From the human T2T-CHM13v2.0 reference genome, Homo sapiens, in NCBI RefSeq assembly GCF_009914755.1, contig NC_060937.1: a DNA stretch of 64,000 nucleotides. One strand, 5' to 3'. Shown here one piece after another: positions 19,612 to 58,810 of the stretch (position 1 is the first letter of the stretch; each line of letters begins with the position of its first letter). Position numbers and translations under genes: made by a program. Under the pieces are notes generated by a model. It saw nothing but the letters and a program-made list of their open reading frames with translations, did not search any database and was not told the origin of the DNA.

Positions 19612-20559
<948 letters not shown>

Positions 20560-23089
20560 TAATCCAGCACTCTCAATTTTTATCCAGGGAGACCCACTGA
20601 ACTAGAACTAAGAAAAAGATTCCGCCTTATTTTAAACTGCTGTTTGGAAATCTTTGTTTGTTTTCCTCATGTCAGGTATCTATTAACACTTCTAGACTTA
20701 GGTGAGATAACAAACATGAACTAGCTACCACTAGAGATTGGAACTCAATGTAATTCTCCCCTAGAGCAATAGTTTTCATCTCTCTCAAATAAATAGGGTT
20801 TTTGACACTGAAGCATACTCCTCTTATATAAATAAAAAAGGAAAAAACTGCTTAACATGAATTCATCTTGTCAATCATTCATTCATATTCCCTTACCTCA
20901 GTGGATATTACTAGCAGCATTTTCAGATGATTTGTTTTGGTTGCACTATATTTCTGTGGGTAGAATGTGAAATACACACAGGTTCTATTAGTAAAAGTTG
21001 TTGAAATGATTAAGTTGAGTAAGTGGTGAGTGTGAAATATAATTTATAGTCAACAATTTTGGTGAAATTTAGTGAACTGAAAAGCATAAATAGATTTAAA
21101 ATTTTTCAAGAAGACATAATAAATTTCAAGAGAAATGGGAAATGTCTTTAAATGTGTACCTGATAACTATACGATATAGATAGTAGGTCAGATCAAGCAA
21201 ATTATTTTCAACCAGTTAAGGATTTTTGGATTTCTGTTTGTAATAGAAGGCCAACCTATTAAGAAGGATCCAACTTATTTAAGAAGATCACTGTAGCTAC
21301 TATTGAGATTGAAAAAAACCATACAATACTCAAAGTGGGGAGACTGGTTAGTAGGCATGAGATGATGGCAGTTTGGAATATAAACTATATTAAAAAGAAT
21401 TCAGGGTAAAAAAATGTTGAAAAGAAGAAAATCCTTAATTGTAGCACCCACGCACAACCATAGATAACATCAAGTTATATTTCTGTCAAGCAATTTTTCT
21501 GCACATAGTTTTGGCCTGTTTGCATTTATATTGTATACGTAATTTAAAATCGTGCTTTTAAAACTTAGTATGGTAGAACTTTTTATGTTATAAAATACTT
21601 TATAAATACAGCCTTTAAGGTCTGCATCTCATTTTGTCAATAGCTGCCGCTGGCTGCTTAACTATCTTCTACTGCTGGTCATTTTAGGTTACATAAAATA
21701 GTCCACTATTTTAAATCACATTAAGTTTTTATTACTACATTCTCAGGGTTGAATGCCACAAGTGTAATTACTGGGTTAGAGGTTATGAACATCTTAGTTT
21801 ATAACCTCTAACATTTGAATGTTGACAAATAGTGTTGGATTCAGGGGTTATTTTTTAAAGACAAGCATTTTTATTACTTTCAGATTTAGGCAGTGTAAGA
21901 CTAGGTCAACAAACTGTTTTCGAGTAAAATGCTCTTTGGGGACCTTCCTTATTAAATAAATATTTTTAATGTATGAATTATTTCATTCACTCAACTATAA
22001 CCTATTATACATCCATTCTGTACCAGGAGCACCCTAGATGTGAGAATACAAAGAGAAATACATTCTCTCCTTGCCCCAGGTGGAGATTTAAATCAATAAT
22101 TTCAAAGGAGTACAAGATTTGTAAAAATGACACGTTTCCACAAATATTTTAACTATTTACTTGCATTCCTACTTACATTTTAAGTTAGTAAATTATTTCT
22201 TTATAAATAATTATTAGGCAAATTTTAGCCCCTGGTAGAATTATCAAATATTACAAATTAGTAAAGTCAAAGTTAACAGATTTTATTTTTGCTGTAAGTA
22301 AAAGTGCGTAAGTTTGCAGTCTAGTCTAAGAAGAAGCCAGTGTCATTTAGTGTGCTACCTAGATGGAAAATTGAGCTTCTTTGGCCTTTGTGTATCTAAA
22401 ATCTGAGTTAAGAGCCAGTAGGCAGCACTTGACAGATGTTTTAAGACATTGATTGACAACTATACTGGAGGCACTAGATTCAAATATGAGTAACTGAAAA
22501 CACAAAGAGGGAGAAGTTTTCTTTCCTTACGTTTTCTACCTTTTGCTTCTTTTCTTCACCTCTTTCACTTTGATTCTTCTAAAGAAAAAACACAGTTTTA
22601 GTAGAAATCATTAATAGAATCTAAACAAATCACAAAACCGAAGTGTCTTTGCAGTTGTAATTTACACCTTGAATTCAGCCAAAATCTAATTTACAAAGGA
22701 AGTTTTCAAATATATTGTTTGGGTAGGGGGAGGGGGTATGCAATGAGACTCCTCACTCCCTAAATCCTTCCAGCTCCAAGAGAAGTCCAGTAGCGAGCCT
22801 TTGTCATGTAAACTGGAGTAGAGAAAGGATAAATGCTTTCCAATGTTTGCCTCTTTTATGCAAGAGATAAGATTAAAATTATGCTAGTAGGGAGAAAATG
22901 AGTCTGAGGTACAGACCAGATAAGGGCTTTCAAGAGGAAATGAATCCTCTGAATGGACATTGTGTTAGGCACTATGCAACAAAGCCTTATCTGGCCCGAA
23001 CTGTCAATAATGCCATGATCTTGGGATTGTAAGAGAGGTCGACCCTCTCCATTCTCCGTCCCATTTCCAACAAGACCAGAATTTAATCT

Positions 23090-23840
23090 TCACTCACTCA
23101 CTCATTTAATAACTATCTATCAAATGCCTACTATGTACCATATGCCATTCTAGACACTGAATACATTGGCAAACAAAAACAGACAAAGGCAAAAAATAGT
23201 AAATACATAAGACGTCTTATTACATAACAAGTATATGTGTATTAGTAAATGCTACGAGAAAGAAAAGGAGAGCAGGTAAGGTGGTTGGGAAAGCTGTGGC
23301 AGGGAATGGGAAGTGTTTTGTTCATCAGGATAAGCAGAATGGGCCTCACGGAGAAGCTAACATTTGAGCAGAGACCCGAGGGAGGTGAGGGAGGTGGCCG
23401 TTTAGATGGCTGTCTGAGGGAAGCGCAGTCCAGGAAGAGGCAGGGCACAAGATCTAAGCAGCACACAGACTGTGTCAAGGAACCACAGGGAGTTCTGTGT
23501 GGCTGAAGCAGAGCGAGCAAGGAGGGCACAGCAATAGCAGCTGAGGTATTGCAGAAGCAAACGTAAGGGCCAGATCATACAGGGACTTATGGCCATTGTA
23601 AGAATGTTGGATTTAATTCTGAGTAAAAGGAGGAGTCTTCGCAGGCTTTTGAGCAGAGGAGTGGCATGATCTGATTCATGTTTAGGAAGGGTCAGCGCTA
23701 GCTTCTGGGCTGATGACAGATGGTGGACAGCAAGGGTAGAAGCAGAGAGACTGATGGGCATTTAGGGCAGTGATCCAGGCAAGAGATAAAGCTGGCGCTG
23801 ACCTGCTTGGTTACAGTGGAGGTTGTGAGAAGTGGTTGGA
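23090..23840 (-). mobile_element. L2 (3' portion)
   Basis: tcactcactcactcattt...tgcctactatgtacca...gagaagctaacatttgagcagagacc...ttttgagcagaggagtggcatgatctga. Confidence 0.8.
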
Positions 23841-23987
23841 TCCCTTCCCCTGTCCTCATCCCACTCTTGAGGCCATAAACACTGAGAAATGCACTCGATC
23901 ATCACACAGCAGAGCTAGCAGAACAGGAGAAAGGAGAAAAGTCTTGATGTTCTTGTGCAAATGGAGGCTGTAAAATTGACAAGATAA
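23365..23987 (+). repeat. Inverted repeat, left arm (L2 plus unique sequence)
   Basis: Reverse complement of 31638-32269; also visible as near-identical ORFs 23402..23761(-) and 31866..32318(+). Confidence 0.97.
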
Positions 23988-24512
23988 GACTGGACTTTGG
24001 ACTTGATGCTGAAACAAGTTGGGACATTGAGGAACTATTAGGATGCAATGATTGTATTTTACAATGTGAGAAGAACATGAGATTTGGGGGGCCAGAGGTG
24101 AAATGGTAGTTTTGGATGTTTTCTCCCCTCCAAATCTCATGTTGAAATGTGACCTGCAATGTTAGAAGTGGGGTCTAGTGGGAGGTATTGGATCATGGAG
24201 GCAGATTCCTCATGAACAGCTTAGCACCATCCCCTTGACTAGTAAGTGAGTTCTCACTCTGGGTTCATGCAAGATCTTGTTGTTTAAAAGAGTCTCTCTC
24301 TTGCTCACTCTCTCACCATGTGATGTGTCTGCTCCTGCTTCACCTTCTGCCATGAGTGGAAGCTCCTTGAGGTCTCACCAGAAGTGGAGTAGATGCCAGT
24401 GCCATGCTTTCTGCACAGCCTGCAGAACTGTGTGCCAATTAAGCCAGTTTTTAAAGATAAATTGCTCAGTCTCTGCTATTCCTTTACGGCAACACAAAAA
24501 CAGACTAATGCA
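23988..24512 (+). mobile_element. MST (MSTB-like) element: 3' end of internal region, polypurine tract and complete LTR (24104-24512)
   Basis: ggactttggacttg...aatgtgagaagaacatgagatttggggggccagaggtgaaa|tggtagtttggatg...cagactaatgca. Confidence 0.88.
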
Positions 24513-25745
24513 CCCAGTATACTTCCAGGCACACTGTGTCAAACAAATAGTAACTGATGGAAATATAGAGCTGTAAACACAGTGTACAATAAACTATATG
24601 GCTTGACACACTTTCATGAAGTCAAGATCTTAGTCCTTCTAATCCAAATGTGTTCTCTTGACCCTTTTGAGATAGTGTAACATTTGGGCCTTTACTCAAA
24701 GACGTGAAATCACTTAATGTAGACGATTATATTGTCAGAGGATAGGTTGACATATATCTGCTACAGTTATGTCTCTTCAAATAATTGTAATATTCCTGTA
24801 CATTTTAATTGGAAATTTCTGTTAAGGGTATAAGTTTTATTACTCAATTCAATTAAATCAAGTACATGCAAGAAGTCATTGAGGAGTAGCAAGTATAGGT
24901 CTTACATGTTCAAACCCAGAAAATAGAACACAAGTGTGTTTTAAAATAGAAACTTTTTCAATTAAACCAACCCCTTCCTGCTCAATAAAATTCATCTCAA
25001 TCAAAATTGATGACAGTACTTTCTAACTGTAATAAATGGCTGTAAATAAGCAATTCAATTTGCAATGCCTGCAACATGAAATATAATTAACCTAGCATAA
25101 CCTTCATTATAATATTTGTCACACCTTGAATCAAGGTTATCAAAATGGCCATTATTTGCAAGGGACAGAAGCCATTCATTGCTGAATTTGTTATGCCTGC
25201 ATTCTGAGGCAATAGTTTATCTATCTTCTATTTGGAAATTAAAATTTTAAAGTAATTACATAAAATAATATATTACAATTATTTGTTGCTATAATACAGG
25301 ATATGAAAAGCATTATACACAGGGAAATCTAAATAGCATCGCAACCCAGGTTCCATTTGTGAAATTTACTGTCCATTTATTGTGAGATTTTGATAAGCCC
25401 TTTATTACTAGAATGCTTCTGTATGTATTTTCATCAGTAAAATAAGAATAGGAGAAGTAGATGCCCCCTCATCTGAATGAAGCACATTAGGATTAAAATA
25501 GCAATATTCCAGTAGTCTTGCTTACAGCAAAATAAGCATTTTTGCTTGAAAAGACTAGATCAATTGAGAACTGATGTTGGAAGATGATGCTTGAAGTTTA
25601 TTTAGAATCAACACTGGCTTTGCTTATGCAGAGATTGATTGTTTTTAATTCAATGTATTCCTGTATTTATAGTGATGTTAACTGAATATAAAAATGGATA
25701 TCATTTGAGTTAAGCATCTTGCCACCTTTTTTTTAAAATGGGAAC

Positions 25746-27383
25746 TATTATTATAATAATTATTATTATTATTATTATACTCTAAGTTCTGGGTTACATG
25801 TGCAGAACGTGCAGTTTTGTTACATAGGTATACACATGCCCTGGTGGTTTGCTGCACCCATCAACTCATCACCTACGTTAGGTATTTAGGTATTTCTCCT
25901 AATGTTATCCCTCTCCTAGCCCCCCACCCCATGACGGGCCGAGGTGTGTGATGTTCCCCTCCCTATGTCCATGCGTTCTCATTGTTCAACTCCCACTTAT
26001 GAGTGAGAAGATGTGGTGTTTGGTTTTCTGATCTTGTGATAGTTTGCTGAGAATGATGGTTTCCAGCTTCACCCATGTCCCTGCAAAGGACATGAACTCA
26101 TCCTTTTTTATGGCTCTTTAGTATTCCATGGTGCATATGTGCCACATTTTCTTTATCCAGTCTATCATTGATGGACGTTTGGGTTGGTTCCAAGTCTTTG
26201 CTATTGTGAATAGTGCTGCAATAAATATATATGTGCATGTGTCTTTATCATAGAATGATTTATAATCCTTTGGGTATATGCCTAGTAATGGGATTGCTGG
26301 GTCAAATGGTATTTCCAGTTCTAGATCCTTGAGGAATTGCCACACTGTCTTCCACAATGGTTGAACTAATTTACACTCCCACCAACAGCATAAAAGCATT
26401 CCTATTTTTCCACAACCTCTCCAGCATCTGTTGTTTCCTGACTTTTTAATGATTGCCATTCTAACTGGTGTGGGGTGGTATCTCATTGTGGTTTTGATTT
26501 GCATTTCTCTGATGGCCAGTGATGATGAGCATTTTTTCATGTGTCTGTTGGCTGCATAAATGTCTTCTTTTGAGAAGTGTCTGTTCATATCTTTTGCCCA
26601 TTTTTTTGATGGGGTTGTTTTTTTCTTGTAAATTTGTTTAAGTTCTCTGTAGATTCTGGTTATTAGCCCTTTGTCAGATGGATAGATTGCAAAAATTTTC
26701 TCCCATTCTGTAGGTTGCCTCTTCACTCTGATGATAGTTTCTTTTGCTGTGCAGAAGCTCTTTGGTTTAATTAGATCCCATTTGTCAATTTTGGCTTTTG
26801 TTGCCATTGCTTTTGGTGTTTTAGACATGAAGTCCTTGCCCATGCCTATGTCCTGAATAGTATTGCCCAGCTTTTCTTCTAGGATTTTTATGGTCCTAGG
26901 TCTTACTTTTAAGTCTTTGATCCATCTTGAGTTGATTTTTGTAAAAGGTGTAAGGAAGGGGTCCAGTTTCAGTTTTCTGCATATGTTTTCCCAACACCGT
27001 TTATTAAATAGGGAGTCTTTTCCCCATTGCTTGTGTGTGTCAGGCTTGTCAAAGATCAGATGGCTGTAGATGTGTGGTGTTATTTCTGAGGCCTCCATTC
27101 TGTTCCATTGGTCTATATATCTGTTTTGGTACGAGTACCATGCTGTTTTGGTTACTATAGCCTTGCAGTAGAGTTTGAAGTCAGGTAGTGTGATGCCTCC
27201 AGCTTTGTTCTTCTTGTCCAGGATTGTCTTGGCTATGTGGACTCTTTTTTTGTTCCATATGAAATTTAAAGTACTTTTTTCCAATTCTGTGAGGAAAGTC
27301 AGTGGTAGCTTGATGGGGATAGCATTGAATGTATAAATTACTTTGGGCAGTATGGCCATTTTCACAACATTGATTCTTCCTAT
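25746..27383 (-). mobile_element. 5'-truncated L1PA7/8-like element with (AAT)n tail
   Basis: 3'UTR ttattatactctaagttctgggttacatgtgcagaacgtgcag...; ORF2 homology. Confidence 0.93.
26118..27365 (-). pseudogene. L1 ORF2p C-terminal fragment (415 aa open), non-functional
   Basis: [55 protein letters not shown]; 3-aa deletion (WENICRK vs WENWLAICRK) and premature stop. Confidence 0.9.
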
Positions 27384-28299
27384 TGAAACTGAGTTTGAAA
27401 GAATTGCAGTTACATCAAGGACTCATACTAATTCTCACATCAGGTTAGAATCAGTAACAGGTTTACAACTATAAAAACAACGACAGCTCGAGGATTTTGT
27501 TCTTTAAAAATGAAAAATTAAGTAGACATTTGTAGATTTTACCTTTATTTGTTGGCTGAAGTTCTGTTTGGCATAAAATAATTACGGGCCACTCTGAATT
27601 ATACTTACCTGTCCTATTATCTCATATTTAAGAAATGGCTGAACCACTGGGAAGATTAGGAGGGAGGAGGGGCACTCCTAGGACCTGAAGACTGCAAAGA
27701 ATTTTCTGGGTCTCCAGAGTCCCTTATCCCCAGCATGGGATGTTCTTTCAAATATTTTGATTATTCACTTTTATCATTGAAAGTTATATGTATATTAATT
27801 TATTATTATATATTAAGAATGTATATAATGTGCATCTATTATGTTCAAATACAATAATTTTAAAAGATGAAATATAGGTGAAATAAACAATACTTTAATA
27901 AATGCATATTTTCTTAATAAAATAGAACCCATGTGCTCTCACTATAAACATTATTATTGAATATACTTCTGTATCAGTTAGCCTTTACTATATAACAAAA
28001 CACTCAAAAACGTAGTGACTGAAAACAACTTTCATTCACTTCCTCACAATTCTGTGAGGTGGCAGCTTGAGCTTTGCTTCTCTGGATGGTTCAAAGGCTG
28101 CTCACTTCCAGGCTCAGTCATGCGACTGCAGTCAGCTGGCATCTCAGCTGGAGTTGGATGGTCCAGGATGTTCTAAGTTGGAAATTGGCAGCCTGGATGT
28201 CTTGGTTTTCCTCCATGTGGCCTCTCTAGTGGGATAACTTGGGCTTTTTCACATGGTCACAGGGCTCCCAGCAGCAACAGAGGCAGGTCCAAATGTGTG

Positions 28300-28561
28300 T
28301 TTTTTTTTTTTTTTTTTTTTTTTTTTTGAATTGTAGTCTCACTCTGCGGCCAGGTTGGACTACAGTGGGCAAACTTGGCTCACTGCAATCTCCACCTCCC
28401 AGGTTCAAGTAATTCCCCTGCCTCAGCCTCCCGAGTAGCTGGGATTACAGGCACACACCACCACACCAGGCTAATTTTTTGTATTTTAGTAGAGACAGGG
28501 TTTCACCATGTTGGCGAGGATGGTCTCTATCTCCTGACCTTGTGATCTGTCTGCATTAGCC
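28300..28561 (-). mobile_element. AluS (Sc-like), 5' end missing
   Basis: Poly-T then Alu right and left arms, ending abruptly at gcattagcct. Confidence 0.9.
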
Positions 28562-28564
28562 TAT

Positions 28565-29415
28565 AGATTTTATTTTTAGAGCATTTTTAGGTTTACAGAA
28601 AAAATTTAGCAGAAAAGCAAACTTCCCAAAATACCCCTTCTCTACCCACTTGCATCCTCCCCCAACAGTTTCCCCTATTAACATCTTGCACCAATACAGT
28701 ACTTTTGCTACAGTTGGTGAACAAATATCAATACATTATTATTAACTAAAGTCCACAGTTTACATTAGGATTCACGCTGTGCTGTGCAGTTCTATAGGTT
28801 TTGCCAAATGCATGATGTCATGTATTCACCATTACAGTTTTATATACAATAGTTCCACTAAAATACCTTAAGTTCCACCTATCCATCCCTCTCTCTCTCC
28901 CCCCATATTCTTGGTAACCACTGATTTTTTTTTTTTTAACTATCTCTGGAAACTTGCCTTTTCCAGAATGTCTTATATTTGGAATCTTACAGTATATCAC
29001 ATTTTCAGGCCAGTATTTTTCACTTAGCAAAATGTTATTAAAGTTCTTTCTTGTTTTATCATGACTGATAAGGTTTTTTCTTTTTGTAACTAAATAATAT
29101 TCCATTGCATAATGTACCATACTTTGTTTATTCATTCACCCACTGAAATAAAGTTGCTGTAAACATTCATGGGCAGATTTTTGTGTGAACCTAAGTTTTC
29201 AATTAATGTGGGTAAGTAGCAAGAATTGTGATTGCTGGATCATTTGGTAAGGTTATGTTTAGTTTGCAAGAAACTGCCAAACTGCCTTCCAAAATGGCTA
29301 TACTGGTTTGCATTTGCACCAGCAATGAATGAGAGTTCCTGTTGCTCTACAACCTCACTCAGCATTTTACATGTCAGTGTTTTGGATTTTAGTTACTCTA
29401 ATAGATATGTAGTAA
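28565..29415 (-). mobile_element. L1MC-type 3' region
   Basis: ttttagagcatttttaggtttacagaaaaa...attattaactaaagtccacagtttacattagg...aagaaactgccaaactg. Confidence 0.8.
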
Positions 29416-31205
29416 AATTCAAGCTTATTATTGCTTGAATTTATCTAAGTATGTTTTCAAGCCTGTTTGCATCATACTTGCTAGTGATCTCTTCAGCAAA
29501 GCAAGTCATATAGACGAAGCCCCATGTCTGTGTGGGAAGCGAATACCCAAAAGGCATGGTTTTCAAGAGAGAATTGTGAAGTCCTTCAATAAACAATCTA
29601 CCACGACTTTGTCATTGTTTTTTATCTTGGTTTTGTAGTTTGTGATATAGTGATTCCAAGTTCTGGGCTATAACAACAGTCGACTTCATTACTTGGTTTT
29701 AATAACCATTAAGCTAAAAAGATATCTTACAAAGATCTCATTGAAAGTTGTTGATTGAGTTTACAATATAATATTCTGATTTTTTAGTCTCATTCATAAT
29801 TATATAAAAAAATCTTTTTGTTAAAATTTATTAATTTTCATCTTCTCTGGCATCAATTCATTTTTCTCACAATTTTGAAGGTGAGTATTTTTTTTATTTT
29901 CTAAAACATTGATTTAAAAATTCAATGAAACTCTCTGAAAGATTTTTGACATAATAAAAAATTGTCTTGAATTTTATAATGGTACAGACAAGAGATTTCT
30001 AAATAGGTTGTCTACATTGTTTTCAGCATCAAGATCACATAACCAAGGAGCATTTTCAAACATCTTTTTTCAAATTCTCTTTCTATAGCACCCATTTCTT
30101 TCAAAAGCAATTTCTTTCTTACTTATCATTAAAATTGATGTGTTAATATTTTAAAAATATCAACTAGCTTAACTATTAGCCACTTGTCATGGTAGAAGTG
30201 GTAAGCAATTTTGGAACACTAGTATCTTTACAGAAGAAAGTAACTCATTTTAAAATTTAACAGCTCTTCTAAGTAACTTACTATGAGATAACTAAGGAAA
30301 CTCTGTGTAGTATAAAAGTATTTTGTGGTCATGGTCACAGGCATATGTAAACTGCAAAATATCGGAATATGCTGAAAATTAAAAAGTGCTGGAAGGTGCT
30401 GCCATTAACACCTCTGTCTTGTGAAACCCCTGCCAACTGTGGGTTACACAAACCTCTAACACTTGGACCAACTGAGGAAACCTGTATCAGTCCTCATGTT
30501 AATGGTGAATTTTACTCCTTTATTTATTATTTAAGATAAGTAAATAGAAATCTGTTATGCTTAGCTCTGGGATGCCTGCACCCTACTTTGGAGACCCTTG
30601 TAACAAACAGCCATTGATTTCAAGGTACATGTGAAATGGGTCTTCGAAGGGAATTTCTGGCACGGTGTCAAGGAGGGTTTCTTCAGTGTCAAGTTGTATG
30701 GTACTTGTGTCATATTTGACTCAGAATACATTTTTCCATAGGATCCATGTTGTGATGCTTAGGGTCTTGAGTTATTTCTCAGATTTTAAAAAACCTATAC
30801 CATAACTATTAATCTATAATCTAAACTAATTAAAATACTATTTTGGTCACATAATAAATTAAGTCAATTTTATGAGCCAGCTTTCAAAATTAACCAATAT
30901 CAGGATAATTCTGAGTGTCAGGAAAGTGTAACCTCCACTTGTTTTACTTTAATTCTTTTGTACCACCATGAATATATCCACCCACTTAGCCCCCTCGATG
31001 CTGAATAGAGCAGTGGGACACAGAGAGAGGTTGTCAGGACAAACATCTTCCAAATGGGTTGTACCGTTAACTGTGGAGGAGAGTCATGGGCCCTTTCTTT
31101 TCCGAAACCATTCACCTGCCTTTCCTTGCAATGATAATAAATATATTACATGTTGAGAATGACAAAACCAGTTCTTTACTCAAAGGTTCAGTTATAAGTG
31201 TAAAG

Positions 31206-31399
31206 CAGGACTTCTCAGCCACAGCACTGCCGGCATCTTGGGCCACATAATTCTTCGCCGTGAAGCTCCGTCCTGTCGATGTAGGATGTTTAGTAGTATC
31301 CCTGGCCTCTACTGCTTCTAGATGCCAGTAGCACTCCTTTCCAGCAGTTACAATGACCAAATGTCCCCTGAGGGGTAAAGCCATCGTTAAGAACCATTG
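31206..31399 (+). mobile_element. MER20 (hAT-Charlie)
   Basis: tgtaggatgtttagtagtatccctggcctctac...tagatgccagtagcac...ccaaatgtcccctg...gttaagaaccattg. Confidence 0.85.
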
Positions 31400-31637
31400 G
31401 TCAAAAGGTAAAAGGATCACGGGAGGGGTTGGATGTCCTGCTACTTCTTTCTTCCTTTGCACTAAACAATGAAGGCTGTTTCCCAAGTGAATTTCTTTTC
31501 CTTCCCTTCCTAGATCGCAATCCTCTCTTCCTGAAGTCTTATTTTTGTTCCTTTCCTTTCTTGGTATCTTTACTTTCCCTATTTCCCTGGACATACCACT
31601 TAACCCTACAAAAATTATCAACCCCCAAATACACTCT

Positions 31638-32269
31638 TTATCTTGTCAATTTTACAGCCTCCATCTGCACAAGAATATCAAGACTTTTCTCCTTTATCCT
31701 GTTTCTGCACCTCTGCTGAGTGGAGGAGTGAGTGCATTTCTCAGTGTTTATGGACTCGAGGGTGGGATGAGGACAGAGGAAGGGATCCAGCCATTTCTCA
31801 CAACCTCCACTCTTACCGAGCAGGTCAGCACCAGCTTTATGTCTTGCCTGAATCACTTGCTCTAAATGCCCATCAGTCTCTCTGCTTCTACCCTTGCTGT
31901 CCACCATCTGTCATCAGCCCAGAAGCTAGCGCTGACCCTTCCTAAACATGAATCAGATCATGCCACTCCTCTGCTCAAAAGCCTGCAAAGGCTCCTCCTT
32001 TTACTCAGAATCAAATCCAACATTCTTACAATGGCCATAAGGCCCTGTATGATCTGGCCCTTACGTTTGCTTCTGCAATACCTCAGCTGCTATAGCTGTG
32101 CCCTCCTTGCTCGCTCTGCTTCAGCCACACAGAACTCCCTGTGGTTCCTTGACACAGTCTGTGTGCTGCTTAGATCCTGTGCCCTGGTTCTTCCCTCTTC
32201 CTGGACTACCCTTGCCTCAGACAGCCATCCAAATAGCCACCTCCCTCACCTCCCTCGGGTCTCTGCTCA
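31638..32269 (-). repeat. Inverted repeat, right arm
   Basis: Reverse complement of 23365-23987 with an 8-bp indel. Confidence 0.97.
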
Positions 32270-32596
32270 TGGGGGCAGATCCCTCATGAATGTCTTGGTG
32301 CTGTCCTTGCGTTTATGAGTGAGTTCTCACTCTTAGTTTACATGAGAGCTGGTTGTTTGAAAGAATGTGGCACCCCTTCCTCTCTCTCTTGCTTCCCTCT
32401 CTGGCCATGTGACATGTCTCTTCCCCCTTCTCCTTCTGCGATGAGTAAAAGCTTCCTGAGTCCTCACTAGAAGCTGAGCAGATGCTGGTCCCATGCTTGC
32501 ACAGCCTGCAGAACCATGAGCCAAATAAACATCTTTTCTTTATAAATTACCCAGTCTTAGGTATTCCTTTACAGCAATGCAAAATGTACTAACACC
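32267..32596 (+). mobile_element. MST (MSTB1-like) LTR lacking its first ~90 bp
   Basis: tcatgggggcagatccctcatgaatg...cagcctgcagaaccatgagccaaataaac...gtactaacac. Confidence 0.88.
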
Positions 32597-32898
32597 CTGG
32601 GTATTGTGCAAAATTCACCAGAGAATGGAGGGGGCAAATTTCCACTGAGCATCAGTTTTAACTGATTAGGAAGGCTCATTTAAATGTCATCATAGAAATA
32701 AAAAACAGACTTGGGTCCTATGGAAAATTAGTCACAAAGACTGTTCTACTTCATATTTCTTTTTCAAAGAGACACTTTTTTTGTGGCATCAAAGGTCCTT
32801 CTTAATCTGGCTACTCTATTACTGCAGTTTCCTCTCTCATGACATTCTACCACAAAACTTACGTTCCTGCTGTAGTGCTTTCTCAGGTCATGCCGCAG

Positions 32899-33240
32899 GA
32901 TAGAGACTGAATGTCATGTGTTGAAATCTGTTGCCTTATGTGCTGGTATTTGGAGGCATCCTAATGTGATGACTTTAGAAGGTTTTTAGGTCATAAGCGC
33001 TCCTCACAGGATTAGTAGCTTTAACAAGAGATCCCAGAAATCCCTGTTTCTTCTGCCATGTGAAGACACAGTGAAAAAAGGACTATCTATGAAACAGGAA
33101 GTGGACCCTCACCACTGAAACTGTTGGTGGCTTGATCTGGGACTTCCCAGTTTCTAGAACTATAAGAAATAAATTTCTGCTGTTTATAAGCCACACTGTC
33201 TGTGGCATTTTGTTATGGAAACCCAAAAGGACTAAGAAAC
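32899..33240 (+). mobile_element. MSTD/MLT1A-like LTR
   Basis: ccatgtgaagacacag...ttgatctgggacttcccagtttctagaactataagaaataaatttctgctgtttataagcc...ggactaag. Confidence 0.8.
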
Positions 33241-42217: not shown

Positions 42218-42864
42218 GACTGTGTTCTTTCTTATGTAAAGAATTTCAAAATGACCTGCCAACAGGGTCCCAACCAGCCGGAACAAAAGAAATGGCATCA
42301 CCCACCCTGGTGTTCTAACAAGAAATTGCTTTGGAAGAGCTGATTGGCCTCTGTTTTCATATGACACCTGATTCATATCCTTGACAGAATTAATTTTCAA
42401 TGAAAGGAGAGCTCATTACTAATTCATTGAAATGGCCCTGTGCATTGAGAGCCAATTCTCCTAAACTTGACTTGAACATCCTTGTGTGGCATCGTCCAGG
42501 AAAACAATCTTGCCTCCTTGAATGGCCTTTAACACCTAGAGCCAGGAAAATTCCCTGACACATTTAGACTCTGACTGGGGTCAATGTTCAGCACCCCACA
42601 AGCACTCCTAGGGATAGTGACACATTTTCCATCTTCTCTCTTGTTTCCATTACTCCCTGGGAAGGTTCACATTAGGCAAGCATCAATATTTTGATGCAGT
42701 GACATGATAAATATCCACGGTCAAGGCTTGCAATTGCATTTTTGAAATGTCAGACAGAAGGGAGTAAAACAAGCAAATAAAACCAACCAAAAACACCACA
42801 AAGAGAAAATATATTAAGTGTCTTGAGAGATGTCCTATAGAACAATCCCTTACAGAAAAAAAAA

Positions 42865-44110
42865 AGAAAAACCTCAATCTCAACATGTCTAAAACTGAAT
42901 TTATTATTTTCCCTCCAAAACCCGGTCTGTGTTTCTTAGAGAATGGCATCACTGTTAAACCCACTTGTACAACCAAAGAACTAAAAAGACATCCTTGATG
43001 ACTCCCTTGCCCTCAGCCACCATGTAGAATTCTTCACCAACGCCTGTTGATTTTACCCCTTAAATATCTCTTGACTCTGACTCCTCTCCATCTCCACTGT
43101 CATCACTATCATCCTTCATCTCTAGTCACTGGTTGTGTTAGGTCATTCTTACACTGCTATAAAGAAGTATCTGAGACTGGGTAATTCATAAGAAAAGAAG
43201 TTTAATTAGCTCACAGTTCTGCAGGCTCTACAGGAAACATAGCAGCATCTGCTTCTGGGGAGGCCTCAGGAACAATCCAATCATGGCAGAAGGCAAAAGG
43301 GGAGCAGGCACATCAAATGGTGAGAACAGGAGAGAGAGAGAGGTACGGGGGAGGTGACACACTTTTAAATGACCAGATCTCACAAAAACTCACTACTACA
43401 AAGACAGTACCAAGACATGGGGGATCTGCCCCCATGATCCATCTGCCCCCATGATCTCCCACCAGGTCCCCACCTCCAGTGCTGGGGATTACAATTCAAC
43501 ATGAGATTTGGGTGGGGACAAATATCCAAACTATATCACTGGTAAAAACTGCTGGATTGTCTAGCCTCCTCTGTTAACTCTGATCTTCTACAATTTATTC
43601 TTATGCCACAGCTAGAATAATCTTTTTCAAACATAAATCCAATAGTAATATTGCTTTCTGGATAAAGTCCAAGATCTGTACATGACTGACAAAATTCTGA
43701 ATGTTCTGGCCTGACCCACGTCTTCAGCTTGACTTTGAGCTACTTCTCTTCATACACTGTGATCCACTGTGCTTTAGTCACTTGGACCTCCTTCCAGTTC
43801 TTCAAACTCATATGTTTACTTCCAACCACAGCATCTTTGAGGATGACATGTGCCCAATGTCTAATGCTCTTTGGTTCACACTTCTTCTTCCATTCACCTA
43901 ATTAGCCATTATTCATCCTTCAGAGCTGAGATCAAGTGTCACCCTCTCAGAAAGGCCTTTCTTGATTCCCTCAGTCCAGCCATGTTCATTGTCATAAAAC
44001 TGTCTTCCTTTACTTCAGAGCAAACAGCTAATGTGCAATTTTACATTCATTCATCCTTTAATCTATTGTAAGTTCAATATAGGTGGGGACTATGTCTGAC
44101 TTTTTTTTTT
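42865..44110 (+). mobile_element. L2 interrupted by MSTA
   Basis: acctcaatctcaacatgtctaaaactgaatt...ccacagctagaataatctttttcaaacataaatc...ctcagaaaggcctttcttga. Confidence 0.75.
43134..43538 (-). mobile_element. MSTA solo LTR
   Basis: tgtgttagg...tgctataaagaagtatctgagactgggtaatt...acatgagatttgggtggggacaaatatccaaactatatca; perfect 5-bp TSD ctggt; internal tandem duplication atctgcccccatgatc x2. Confidence 0.92.

Positions 44111-57758: not shown

Positions 57759-58810
<1,052 letters not shown>

What the first reader, a model, noticed from the sequence alone, without database searches (positions are those of the whole stretch)
23365..32269. ~625-bp inverted duplication flanking a 7.65-kb segment that appears to be inverted
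Seen: 23365-23987 is the reverse complement of 31638-32269. The arms include L2 plus unique sequence, so they are not two independent TE copies. The left arm continues its host L2 leftward (to ~23090) but is cut on the right by MST sequence. The right arm continues into unique sequence on its inner side (31637 and below) but is cut by an MST LTR on its outer side. Inference: the native continuation of the left arm is revcomp(31637 downward), so 23988-31637 is in a derived, inverted orientation. Such arms are NAHR substrates, so the inversion may be polymorphic or recurrent.
Basis: partly seen in the sequence, partly recalled or inferred. Interest (0 to 1): 0.75.

Follow-up and report, generated by a model that had tools for sequence, protein, structure and literature searches.

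The report
Old inversion from back-to-back retroelements
A 0.6-kb stretch of human chromosome 13 sits twice in opposite directions around 7.65 kb of DNA that was likely flipped tens of millions of years ago, probably when two back-to-back retroelement insertions broke and were repaired; it is a known kind of rearrangement and likely no longer varies among people.

Summary
The inverted pair is real: 23365-23987 and 31638-32269 differ at 33 of 622 aligned bases plus 5 gaps (94.7%); no third copy was found in the genome. Both new junctions fall inside truncated MaLR LTR-element remnants, with 3-nt and imperfect 6-nt microhomology. The L2 runs on past the left arm's outer edge only. New here: the 5 bases after the left LTR are the reverse complement of the 5 after the right LTR (1 of 1128 control pairs). 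Once the segment is flipped this reads as one target-site duplication shared by two different elements set head-to-head; an intact pair of that kind exists on contig C8. So the segment is likely inverted (about 0.8), with a break at that pair as the likely origin, roughly 25-50 Mya. A 315-bp core differs by 1.6% against 10.6% elsewhere, likely later gene conversion. Direct tests of continuity across the inferred ancestral joins were negative or weak. No inversion is listed here in the human, chimpanzee or gibbon tables searched. No outgroup genome was available.

The parts
23091..23843 (-). Old LINE (L2; name and strand recalled) that hosts the outer three quarters of the left arm and continues left of it
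   Evidence: profile from 38 foreign copies, model 144-923, 300 bits; 23092-23364 alone 37.5 bits
23365..23987 (+). Left arm of the inverted duplication; outer flank native, inner flank derived
23451..23765 (+). High-identity core, 5 differences in 315 (partner 31862-32176); likely gene-conversion tract(s); longest perfect run 125 bp
23982..23988 (+). Junction J1 (arm to MaLR internal sequence), imperfect 6-nt microhomology
   Evidence: 6 of 19 foreign copies match 5 of the 6 arm-terminal bases, 9 of 19 match at least 4; the 8 positions before that match in 0-3 of 19
23988..24103 (+). 3' end of a MaLR internal region, cut off at its 5' side
24104..24512 (+). LTR1, complete 3' LTR of the older-looking group
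24513..24517 (+). 5-mer CCCAG directly after LTR1; reverse complement of 32597-32601; likely one copy of a shared target-site duplication
23988..31637 (.). 7.65-kb segment inferred to be inverted; holds a 5'-truncated L1 (25721-27386) and an Alu (about 28300-28555) (names recalled)
   Evidence: inference from the junctions
31638..32269 (-). Right arm; inner flank likely native, outer flank derived
32267..32270 (+). Junction J2 (arm to LTR2), 3-nt microhomology TCA
   Evidence: 18 of 23 scored foreign LTR copies carry the same 3 bases directly upstream (24 given, 1 skipped)
32270..32596 (+). LTR2, lacking about its first 90 bases; younger-looking group
   Evidence: start aligns to LTR1 position 24196
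32597..32601 (+). 5-mer CTGGG directly after LTR2 (ungapped register; the LTR's last base deviates from most copies)
23260..24141 (.). RefSeq enhancer spanning the left arm and J1
   Evidence: hub annotation only; not tested

Best explanation
A 623-632-bp stretch is present twice in opposite orientation 7.65 kb apart, with both new junctions inside truncated MaLR remnants; the DNA between is likely inverted, likely in one ancient event in which a head-to-head pair of MaLR elements broke and was repaired by microhomology-guided template switching, and the arms were probably partly homogenised later by gene conversion. Inferred steps: (1) two different MaLR elements inserted into the same 5-bp target in opposite orientation, 5' ends together, forming a near-palindrome (odds about 0.7); (2) a break or stalled fork there lost both 5' halves; (3) synthesis leaving the inner end of the arm jumped to the internal remnant (J1), copied backwards through the LTR, the 7.1-kb interior and the arm again, then jumped into LTR2 (J2); staggered breaks with end-joining give the same product; (4) this happened roughly 25-50 Mya (K2P 0.098 outside the core; calibration recalled); (5) conversion over about 315 bp reset the core roughly 3-18 Mya (odds about 0.7). 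The present orientation is derived with odds about 0.8 and likely fixed in humans.
For: Two copies only. L2 continuous across the left outer edge, cut at the right outer edge. Both derived junctions lie in element interiors, which retroviral-type integration does not make (established knowledge), with microhomology in 18 of 23 and, imperfect, 6 of 19 copies. Reverse-complement 5-mer at the two LTR 3' ends: 1 of 1128 control pairs, while 4 of 28 copies keep an exact and 12 of 28 a 4-of-5 or better target duplication. LTR1 and LTR2 lie on opposite sides of a 97/91 branch and are rejected as sisters at pAU 0.03, so two insertions. An intact head-to-head pair with one 5-mer at left end, centre and right end exists on contig C8; a second on C4 is offset by one base. 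The flanks have A at -3 and T at +3 in the flipped frame, fitting the MaLR motif of PMC2836564 (passages). Core 5/315 against 33/312: 0 of 2000 shuffles; 2 of 1000 without CpG sites; 1 to 10 of 1000 when neighbours within 1-3 nt are merged in data and shuffles alike.
Against: No outgroup seen. L2 continuity across 31637|31638 not found (57 of 150; no nhmmer hit). L2 continuity across the inferred empty site only p 0.05-0.16 over six variants of the test, and the L2 half at 24513-24590 is itself weak (5 of 150). Skews do not flip. The 5-mer match needs LTR2's last base to be mutated. The AU test is marginal and the two copy sets were picked by similarity to each LTR. The mosaic loses significance when differences within 4 nt are merged (62 and 157 of 1000; 178 of 1000), and an unrelated L1 pair is also heterogeneous (0 of 100), though only 9.5% against 23.6%. 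A two-step history gives the same sequence.
Confidence: 0.45

Rival explanations
1. Two steps: the break at the MaLR pair was first patched with a 630-bp inverted copy of the arm (templated insertion, no inversion); millions of years later a crossover between the arms flipped the interior and left the homogenised core as its conversion tract.
For: Same two junctions and microhomologies. Short inverted duplications are the commonest inversion class in long-read data, 277 of 733, median 284 bp (PMC12350158, section read). The core is central and of plausible tract size. L2-polarised differences switch side across it: outer 4 left/1 right, inner 1 left/7 right, 8 of 21 sites not callable (Fisher 0.03, post hoc).
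Against: Needs a second fixed event between short arms already several per cent diverged. The side switch would need an 11:2 rate difference between neighbouring copies, and L2 polarisation is noisy. Gibbon table has no row here but Strand-seq is weak below 10 kb.
Confidence: 0.33
2. No inversion of the whole interior: an inverted copy, or cut-and-paste move, of the arm plus a short neighbouring piece, with local deletions making J1 and J2; most of 24518-31637 is in ancestral orientation and the 5-mer match is chance.
For: Direct continuity tests were negative or weak; AT and GC skew of 29421-31637 resembles the right flank; cut-and-paste inversions exist, 2 of 733.
Against: Needs the 1-in-1128 match to be chance, extra junctions that were not seen, and both junctions to land in MaLR interiors independently.
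Confidence: 0.12
3. A currently polymorphic or recurrent NAHR inversion in humans.
For: Arms above 90% identity with a 98% core; validated IR inversions have repeats from 140 bp (PMC13629690, section read) and NAHR inversions recur (PMC6748972, passages).
Against: 0 of 17 chr13 rows in the 41-genome table lie here; no coordinate match in the stored, cut part of the 1,019-genome tables; longest perfect run 125 bp; arms just under the 654-bp lower end of the 24 NAHR inversions in PMC6748972.
Confidence: 0.06
4. The core is alike because both copies are under selection as enhancers, not because of conversion.
For: RefSeq enhancer at 23260-24141 covers the left arm (hub annotation).
Against: A 6.6-fold drop in both copies over 315 bp of old LINE would be unusually strong; no enhancer is listed on the right arm; 3 of 4 core CpGs are shared against 1 of 7 outside, as expected after recent copying.
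Confidence: 0.1

Closest known systems
Inversions with breakpoint inverted duplications from staggered breaks (Ranz et al. 2007, PMC1885836; passages read)
   Same: Formerly single-copy sequence duplicated in inverted orientation at the two ends; the repeat is a product, not the cause, of the inversion.
   Different: Only one end is duplicated; the other lost sequence inside retroelements; primate, not fly; no outgroup proof here.
Non-homologous FoSTeS/MMBIR complex inversions with flanking deletions or insertions (PMC6748972, passages; PMC12350158, section)
   Same: Kilobase inversion, deletion at one end, extra sequence at the other, short microhomology.
   Different: Ancient and apparently fixed; the duplicated piece is long enough to recombine afterwards.
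IR-mediated recurrent inversions (PMC3961182, PMC6748972, passages; PMC13629690, two sections)
   Same: Inverted repeats above 90% identity flank a few kb; a high-identity core as in HsInv0209.
   Different: Arms shorter and less alike; no second orientation listed in the tables searched.
Same-site double insertion of transposons (McGurk and Barbash, 10.1101/158386; passages) and unstable closely spaced inverted Alu pairs (PMC3215922; passages)
   Same: Two elements share one target duplication; head-to-head pairs are thought unstable.
   Different: Described there for fly P, hobo, jockey, R1 and for human Alu; here primate LTR elements of two groups, with the centre deleted and the pair as the likely seed of an inversion.

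Membership tests
Inversion with breakpoint inverted duplication (staggered break type) | Duplicated piece present only at the two breakpoints, in inverted orientation | tested here: met
Inversion with breakpoint inverted duplication (staggered break type) | One copy keeps the native outer flank and the other the native inner flank | tested here: inconclusive
   outer flank met; inner flank not shown, only inferred because the left inner flank is a cut element
Inversion with breakpoint inverted duplication (staggered break type) | Outgroup has one copy and the opposite orientation | not testable with these tools
   no relative genomes held
FoSTeS/MMBIR complex inversion | Microhomology at junctions | tested here: met
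   J2 3 nt in 18 of 23 copies; J1 imperfect, 5 of 6 in 6 of 19 copies; read from paralogues as stand-ins for the lost sequence
FoSTeS/MMBIR complex inversion | Deletion or insertion at the breakpoints | tested here: met
   both MaLR remnants lack their 5' parts; no further internal-region piece found in the window with 4 foreign queries
FoSTeS/MMBIR complex inversion | All changes made in a single event | not testable with these tools
   needs primate outgroups; two-step history gives the same sequence
IR-mediated polymorphic/recurrent inversion | Inverted repeats above 90% identity at both breakpoints | tested here: met
   94.7% over 622 columns
IR-mediated polymorphic/recurrent inversion | Both orientations segregate or differ among apes | tested here: inconclusive
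   no row here in PMC10150506 Table S1, PMC1270012 tables, PMC9712629 Table S2; great-ape and macaque tables could not be read
Same-site double insertion | Same target duplication at both outer ends | tested here: met
   exact 5-mer in the flipped frame; 1 of 1128 by chance
Same-site double insertion | Target duplication between the two elements | not testable with these tools
   the centre is deleted at this locus; present in the C8 pair
Same-site double insertion | The two LTRs come from separate insertions | tested here: met
   97/91 branch between them; pAU 0.03, marginal
MaLR LTR elements | 5-bp target duplication, about 0.4-kb LTRs, 2.3-2.4-kb full element | tested here: met
   5-bp duplication for MaLR in PMC2836564
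MaLR LTR elements | Assignment to MST subfamilies | not testable with these tools
   no repeat library; label recalled

The most novel reading that the evidence does not exclude
MaLR elements re-use their own target duplication, so primate genomes acquired head-to-head LTR-element pairs that act as fragile sites; this locus is the scar of one such pair, and the inverted arms it created have since exchanged and flipped the 7.65-kb interior, with its enhancer-bearing junction, in some ape or monkey lineages.
Probability: 0.2. Interest if true: 0.6.

Novelty: new member of a known kind. Interest (0 to 1): 0.33.

Why it matters
It is a compact case in which the order of events can be read from one genome: double insertion, break, inverted duplication, later homogenisation. 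It shows a non-homologous rearrangement creating its own substrate for homologous recombination. The side result, same-site head-to-head MaLR pairs in the human genome, gives a countable class: intact pairs against scars would measure how unstable such pairs are. No coding gene is touched; the only functional link is an untested RefSeq enhancer near NRAD1 and LINC00390.

Tried and rejected
L2 continuation across the right inner junction, suspected by eye: not supported by nhmmer or a profile alignment with nulls (57 of 150). A hit across J1 was set aside as likely contamination of that profile by MaLR flanks; it was not significant once those loci were dropped (25 of 150). L2 continuation across the empty site: 477 of 3000 (ungapped), 64 of 1000 (gapped), 146-299 of 3000 (fixed lengths). 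Genome searches with 24513-24900 and 32597-32900 found only themselves. Base skew as an orientation marker: uninformative. One element with a flipped LTR: disfavoured because LTR1 and LTR2 are not sisters. Two independent L2 copies: rejected, arms are 94.7% alike against 68-92% short hits elsewhere and include 144 bp of non-L2 sequence. Literature: searches with inversion + LINC00284 + 13q14.11, NRAD1 + enhancer + LINC00390 and SMIM2 + inversion listed no paper on this structure (listings only); searches for MaLR head-to-head or same-site insertion listed none for MaLR. The PMC6748972 supplement search (12 of 18 files) found no 'chr13' at all and is uninformative. One search timed out.
Full report
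Observation. Self-BLAST and the repeat finder give the inverted pair at the stated places. Global alignment of 23365-23987 with the reverse complement of 31638-32269 shows 33 mismatches in 622 columns and 5 gap events, 94.7% identity. In the whole genome only these two full copies were found; the other 38 of 40 scored matches are short, 68-92% hits, and 31400-31850 matches only itself and the left arm. Repeat names below (L2, L1, Alu, MaLR, MST) are recalled from sequence features; no repeat library was on hand.

Which flanks are native. A profile built from 38 L2 copies from other loci matches 23091-23843 straight across the left arm's outer edge (23092-23364 alone scores 37.5 bits), whereas the right match begins at 32269, at the model position where the left arm begins. 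So the left outer flank is native and the right outer junction (J2) is new. The left inner junction (J1) runs into the middle of a MaLR internal region: 19 of 24 foreign copies have the homologous sequence continuing upstream. Integration of LTR elements needs intact ends (established knowledge), so J1 is new as well, which leaves the right copy as the likely holder of the native inner flank. I could not show that directly: L2 similarity stops at 23843/31783 and a profile alignment across 31637|31638 scored no better than 57 of 150 resampled sequences, against 0 of 150 for a positive control.

Junctions. At J2 the last three arm bases are also the three bases upstream in 18 of 23 scored LTR copies. 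At J1 the last six arm bases match in 13, 7, 11, 15, 0 and 17 of 19 copies, against 0-3 of 19 for the eight positions before; 6 of 19 copies match 5 of 6 (the query began at these six bases, which favours them a little). This is the pattern of template switching or microhomology-mediated end joining, read from paralogues because the lost sequence is gone.

The far end of the inverted segment. The arms alone do not say how much DNA was flipped. The LTR ends do. LTR1 ends at 24512 and is followed by CCCAG; LTR2, in ungapped register with its relatives, ends at 32596 and is followed by CTGGG, the reverse complement. Among 48 foreign copies 1 of 1128 pairs does this, while true target duplications survive exactly in 4 of 28 and at 4 of 5 or better in 12 of 28 copies by a strict automatic rule. 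With the interior reversed, the two remnants point away from each other and are bounded by one direct 5-bp repeat. They are not the two LTRs of one element: they are 73.8% alike, lie on opposite sides of a 97/91 branch, and are rejected as sisters at pAU 0.03 (marginal, and the copy sets were chosen by likeness to each LTR). That calls for two insertions at one target. A pattern search allowing spacers of 2-12 bases found one head-to-head and one head-to-tail LTR junction, both with a 5-base spacer, and none with the control patterns; a looser pattern found 3 sites with spacers 4, 5 and 12, control 1. At contig C8:51,853,691 a solo LTR and a 2.3-kb element stand head-to-head with the same 5-mer at the left end, the centre and the right end; the C4 site shares its target with a one-base offset; the head-to-tail site's outer end was unclear and the 12-base site was not checked. 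So the inferred ancestral state exists intact elsewhere. Against: an L2 fragment seems to end at 24513 (weak, 5 of 150) and its continuation after 32601 reaches only p 0.05-0.16; base skews do not flip.

Mosaic identity. 23451-23765 holds 5 differences in 315 against 33 in 312 elsewhere; 0 of 2000 shuffles gave so strong a split. Without CpG sites 2 of 1000; merging neighbours within 1, 2, 3, 4 nt in data and shuffles alike gives 1, 4, 10, 62 of 1000, and merging before shuffling 5, 17, 56, 157. An unrelated L1 pair in the window is also heterogeneous (0 of 100), but as 9.5% against 23.6%, not as near-identity. Conversion is the likely cause, about 0.7. K2P is 0.098 outside (28 of 307; 95% range of p 0.061-0.132) and 0.016 inside (0.005-0.037); with recalled primate calibrations this is roughly 25-50 and 3-18 million years. 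Polarising with L2 copies, 13 of 21 sites could be called and the derived allele switches from mostly left to mostly right across the core (Fisher 0.03, post hoc); I give this little weight.

Mechanism. Shown: two copies, two cut elements, microhomologies, the shared 5-mer, the mosaic. Inferred: a head-to-head MaLR pair broke or stalled a fork; repair left the arm, entered the internal remnant, copied backwards through the interior and the arm, and re-entered in LTR2, which inverts the interior, duplicates the arm and deletes both 5' halves (0.45). The main rival makes the same junctions by a short templated insertion and flips the interior later by a crossover in the core (0.33). Only primate outgroups separate the two. 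No inversion of the interior: 0.12.

Catalogues. PMC10150506 Table S1 (41 genomes, T2T): 17 chr13 rows seen, none between 38.2 and 47.4 Mb. PMC9712629 Table S2 (gibbon, hg38): 17 chr13 rows, none between 36.7 and 45.4 Mb; the locus is at about 44.08-44.09 Mb in hg38 by a recalled conversion. PMC1270012 (human-chimpanzee): prefixes 4355 and 4356 occur only in chr14 and chr18 rows (conversion recalled). PMC12350158: no coordinate match in tables cut when stored. PMC13629690 took unpredicted candidates only from duplications of 1 kb or more, so this pair would enter only if earlier predicted (sections read). Great-ape and macaque tables could not be read. Polymorphism is therefore unsupported, not excluded (0.06).

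Known kinds. It works like the staggered-break inversions of PMC1885836 (passages) and the non-homologous complex inversions of PMC6748972 and PMC12350158; the trigger resembles same-site double insertion in flies (10.1101/158386, passages) and unstable inverted Alu pairs (PMC3215922, passages). PMC2836564 gives the MaLR 5-bp duplication and an A/T preference three bases out (passages), which this site fits in the flipped frame and which LTR ends themselves may recreate (inference). PMC3961182 and PMC2603318 were seen as passages only. Two searches listed no paper on same-site head-to-head MaLR pairs and three none on this locus; these were listings, not full reads.

Verdict. A real, ancient, probably fixed complex inversion of a known kind, with an unusually readable origin. 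Interest 0.33.

Noticed in passing
G000:C8:51853100-51856400 (L110, L113): Intact head-to-head MaLR pair: a solo LTR and a 2.3-kb element sharing one 5-bp target, the same 5-mer at both outer ends and in the centre; arms 73% alike.
   Followed up: yes
G000:C4:24077130-24078230 (L112) and G000:C8:119700750-119701900 (L111): A second head-to-head pair whose targets are offset by one base, and a head-to-tail LTR pair with a 5-base spacer.
   Followed up: partly
G000:C5:74933429-74934105 (rows): Two LTR matches in opposite orientation about 75 bases apart, 3' ends facing.
   Followed up: no
window 19896-20560: Tail-to-tail inverted Alu pair with only about 60 bases between the tails, 74% alike over the whole, 2.8 kb left of the left arm; closely spaced inverted pairs are under-represented in the genome (PMC3215922).
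   Followed up: partly
window 23260-24141: The RefSeq enhancer spans the left arm, J1 and the LTR1 start; the 98%-identical right core has no such annotation, which could be real or a mapping effect.
   Followed up: no
window 25763-26707 and 57776-58716: Two L1 3' ends in the same orientation, 86.7% alike, with a more divergent first 190 bases; independent insertions.
   Followed up: partly
window 43135-43530: A third LTR of the same family on the minus strand, abutting an L2 piece at 42834-43107; groups with the older-looking copies.
   Followed up: partly
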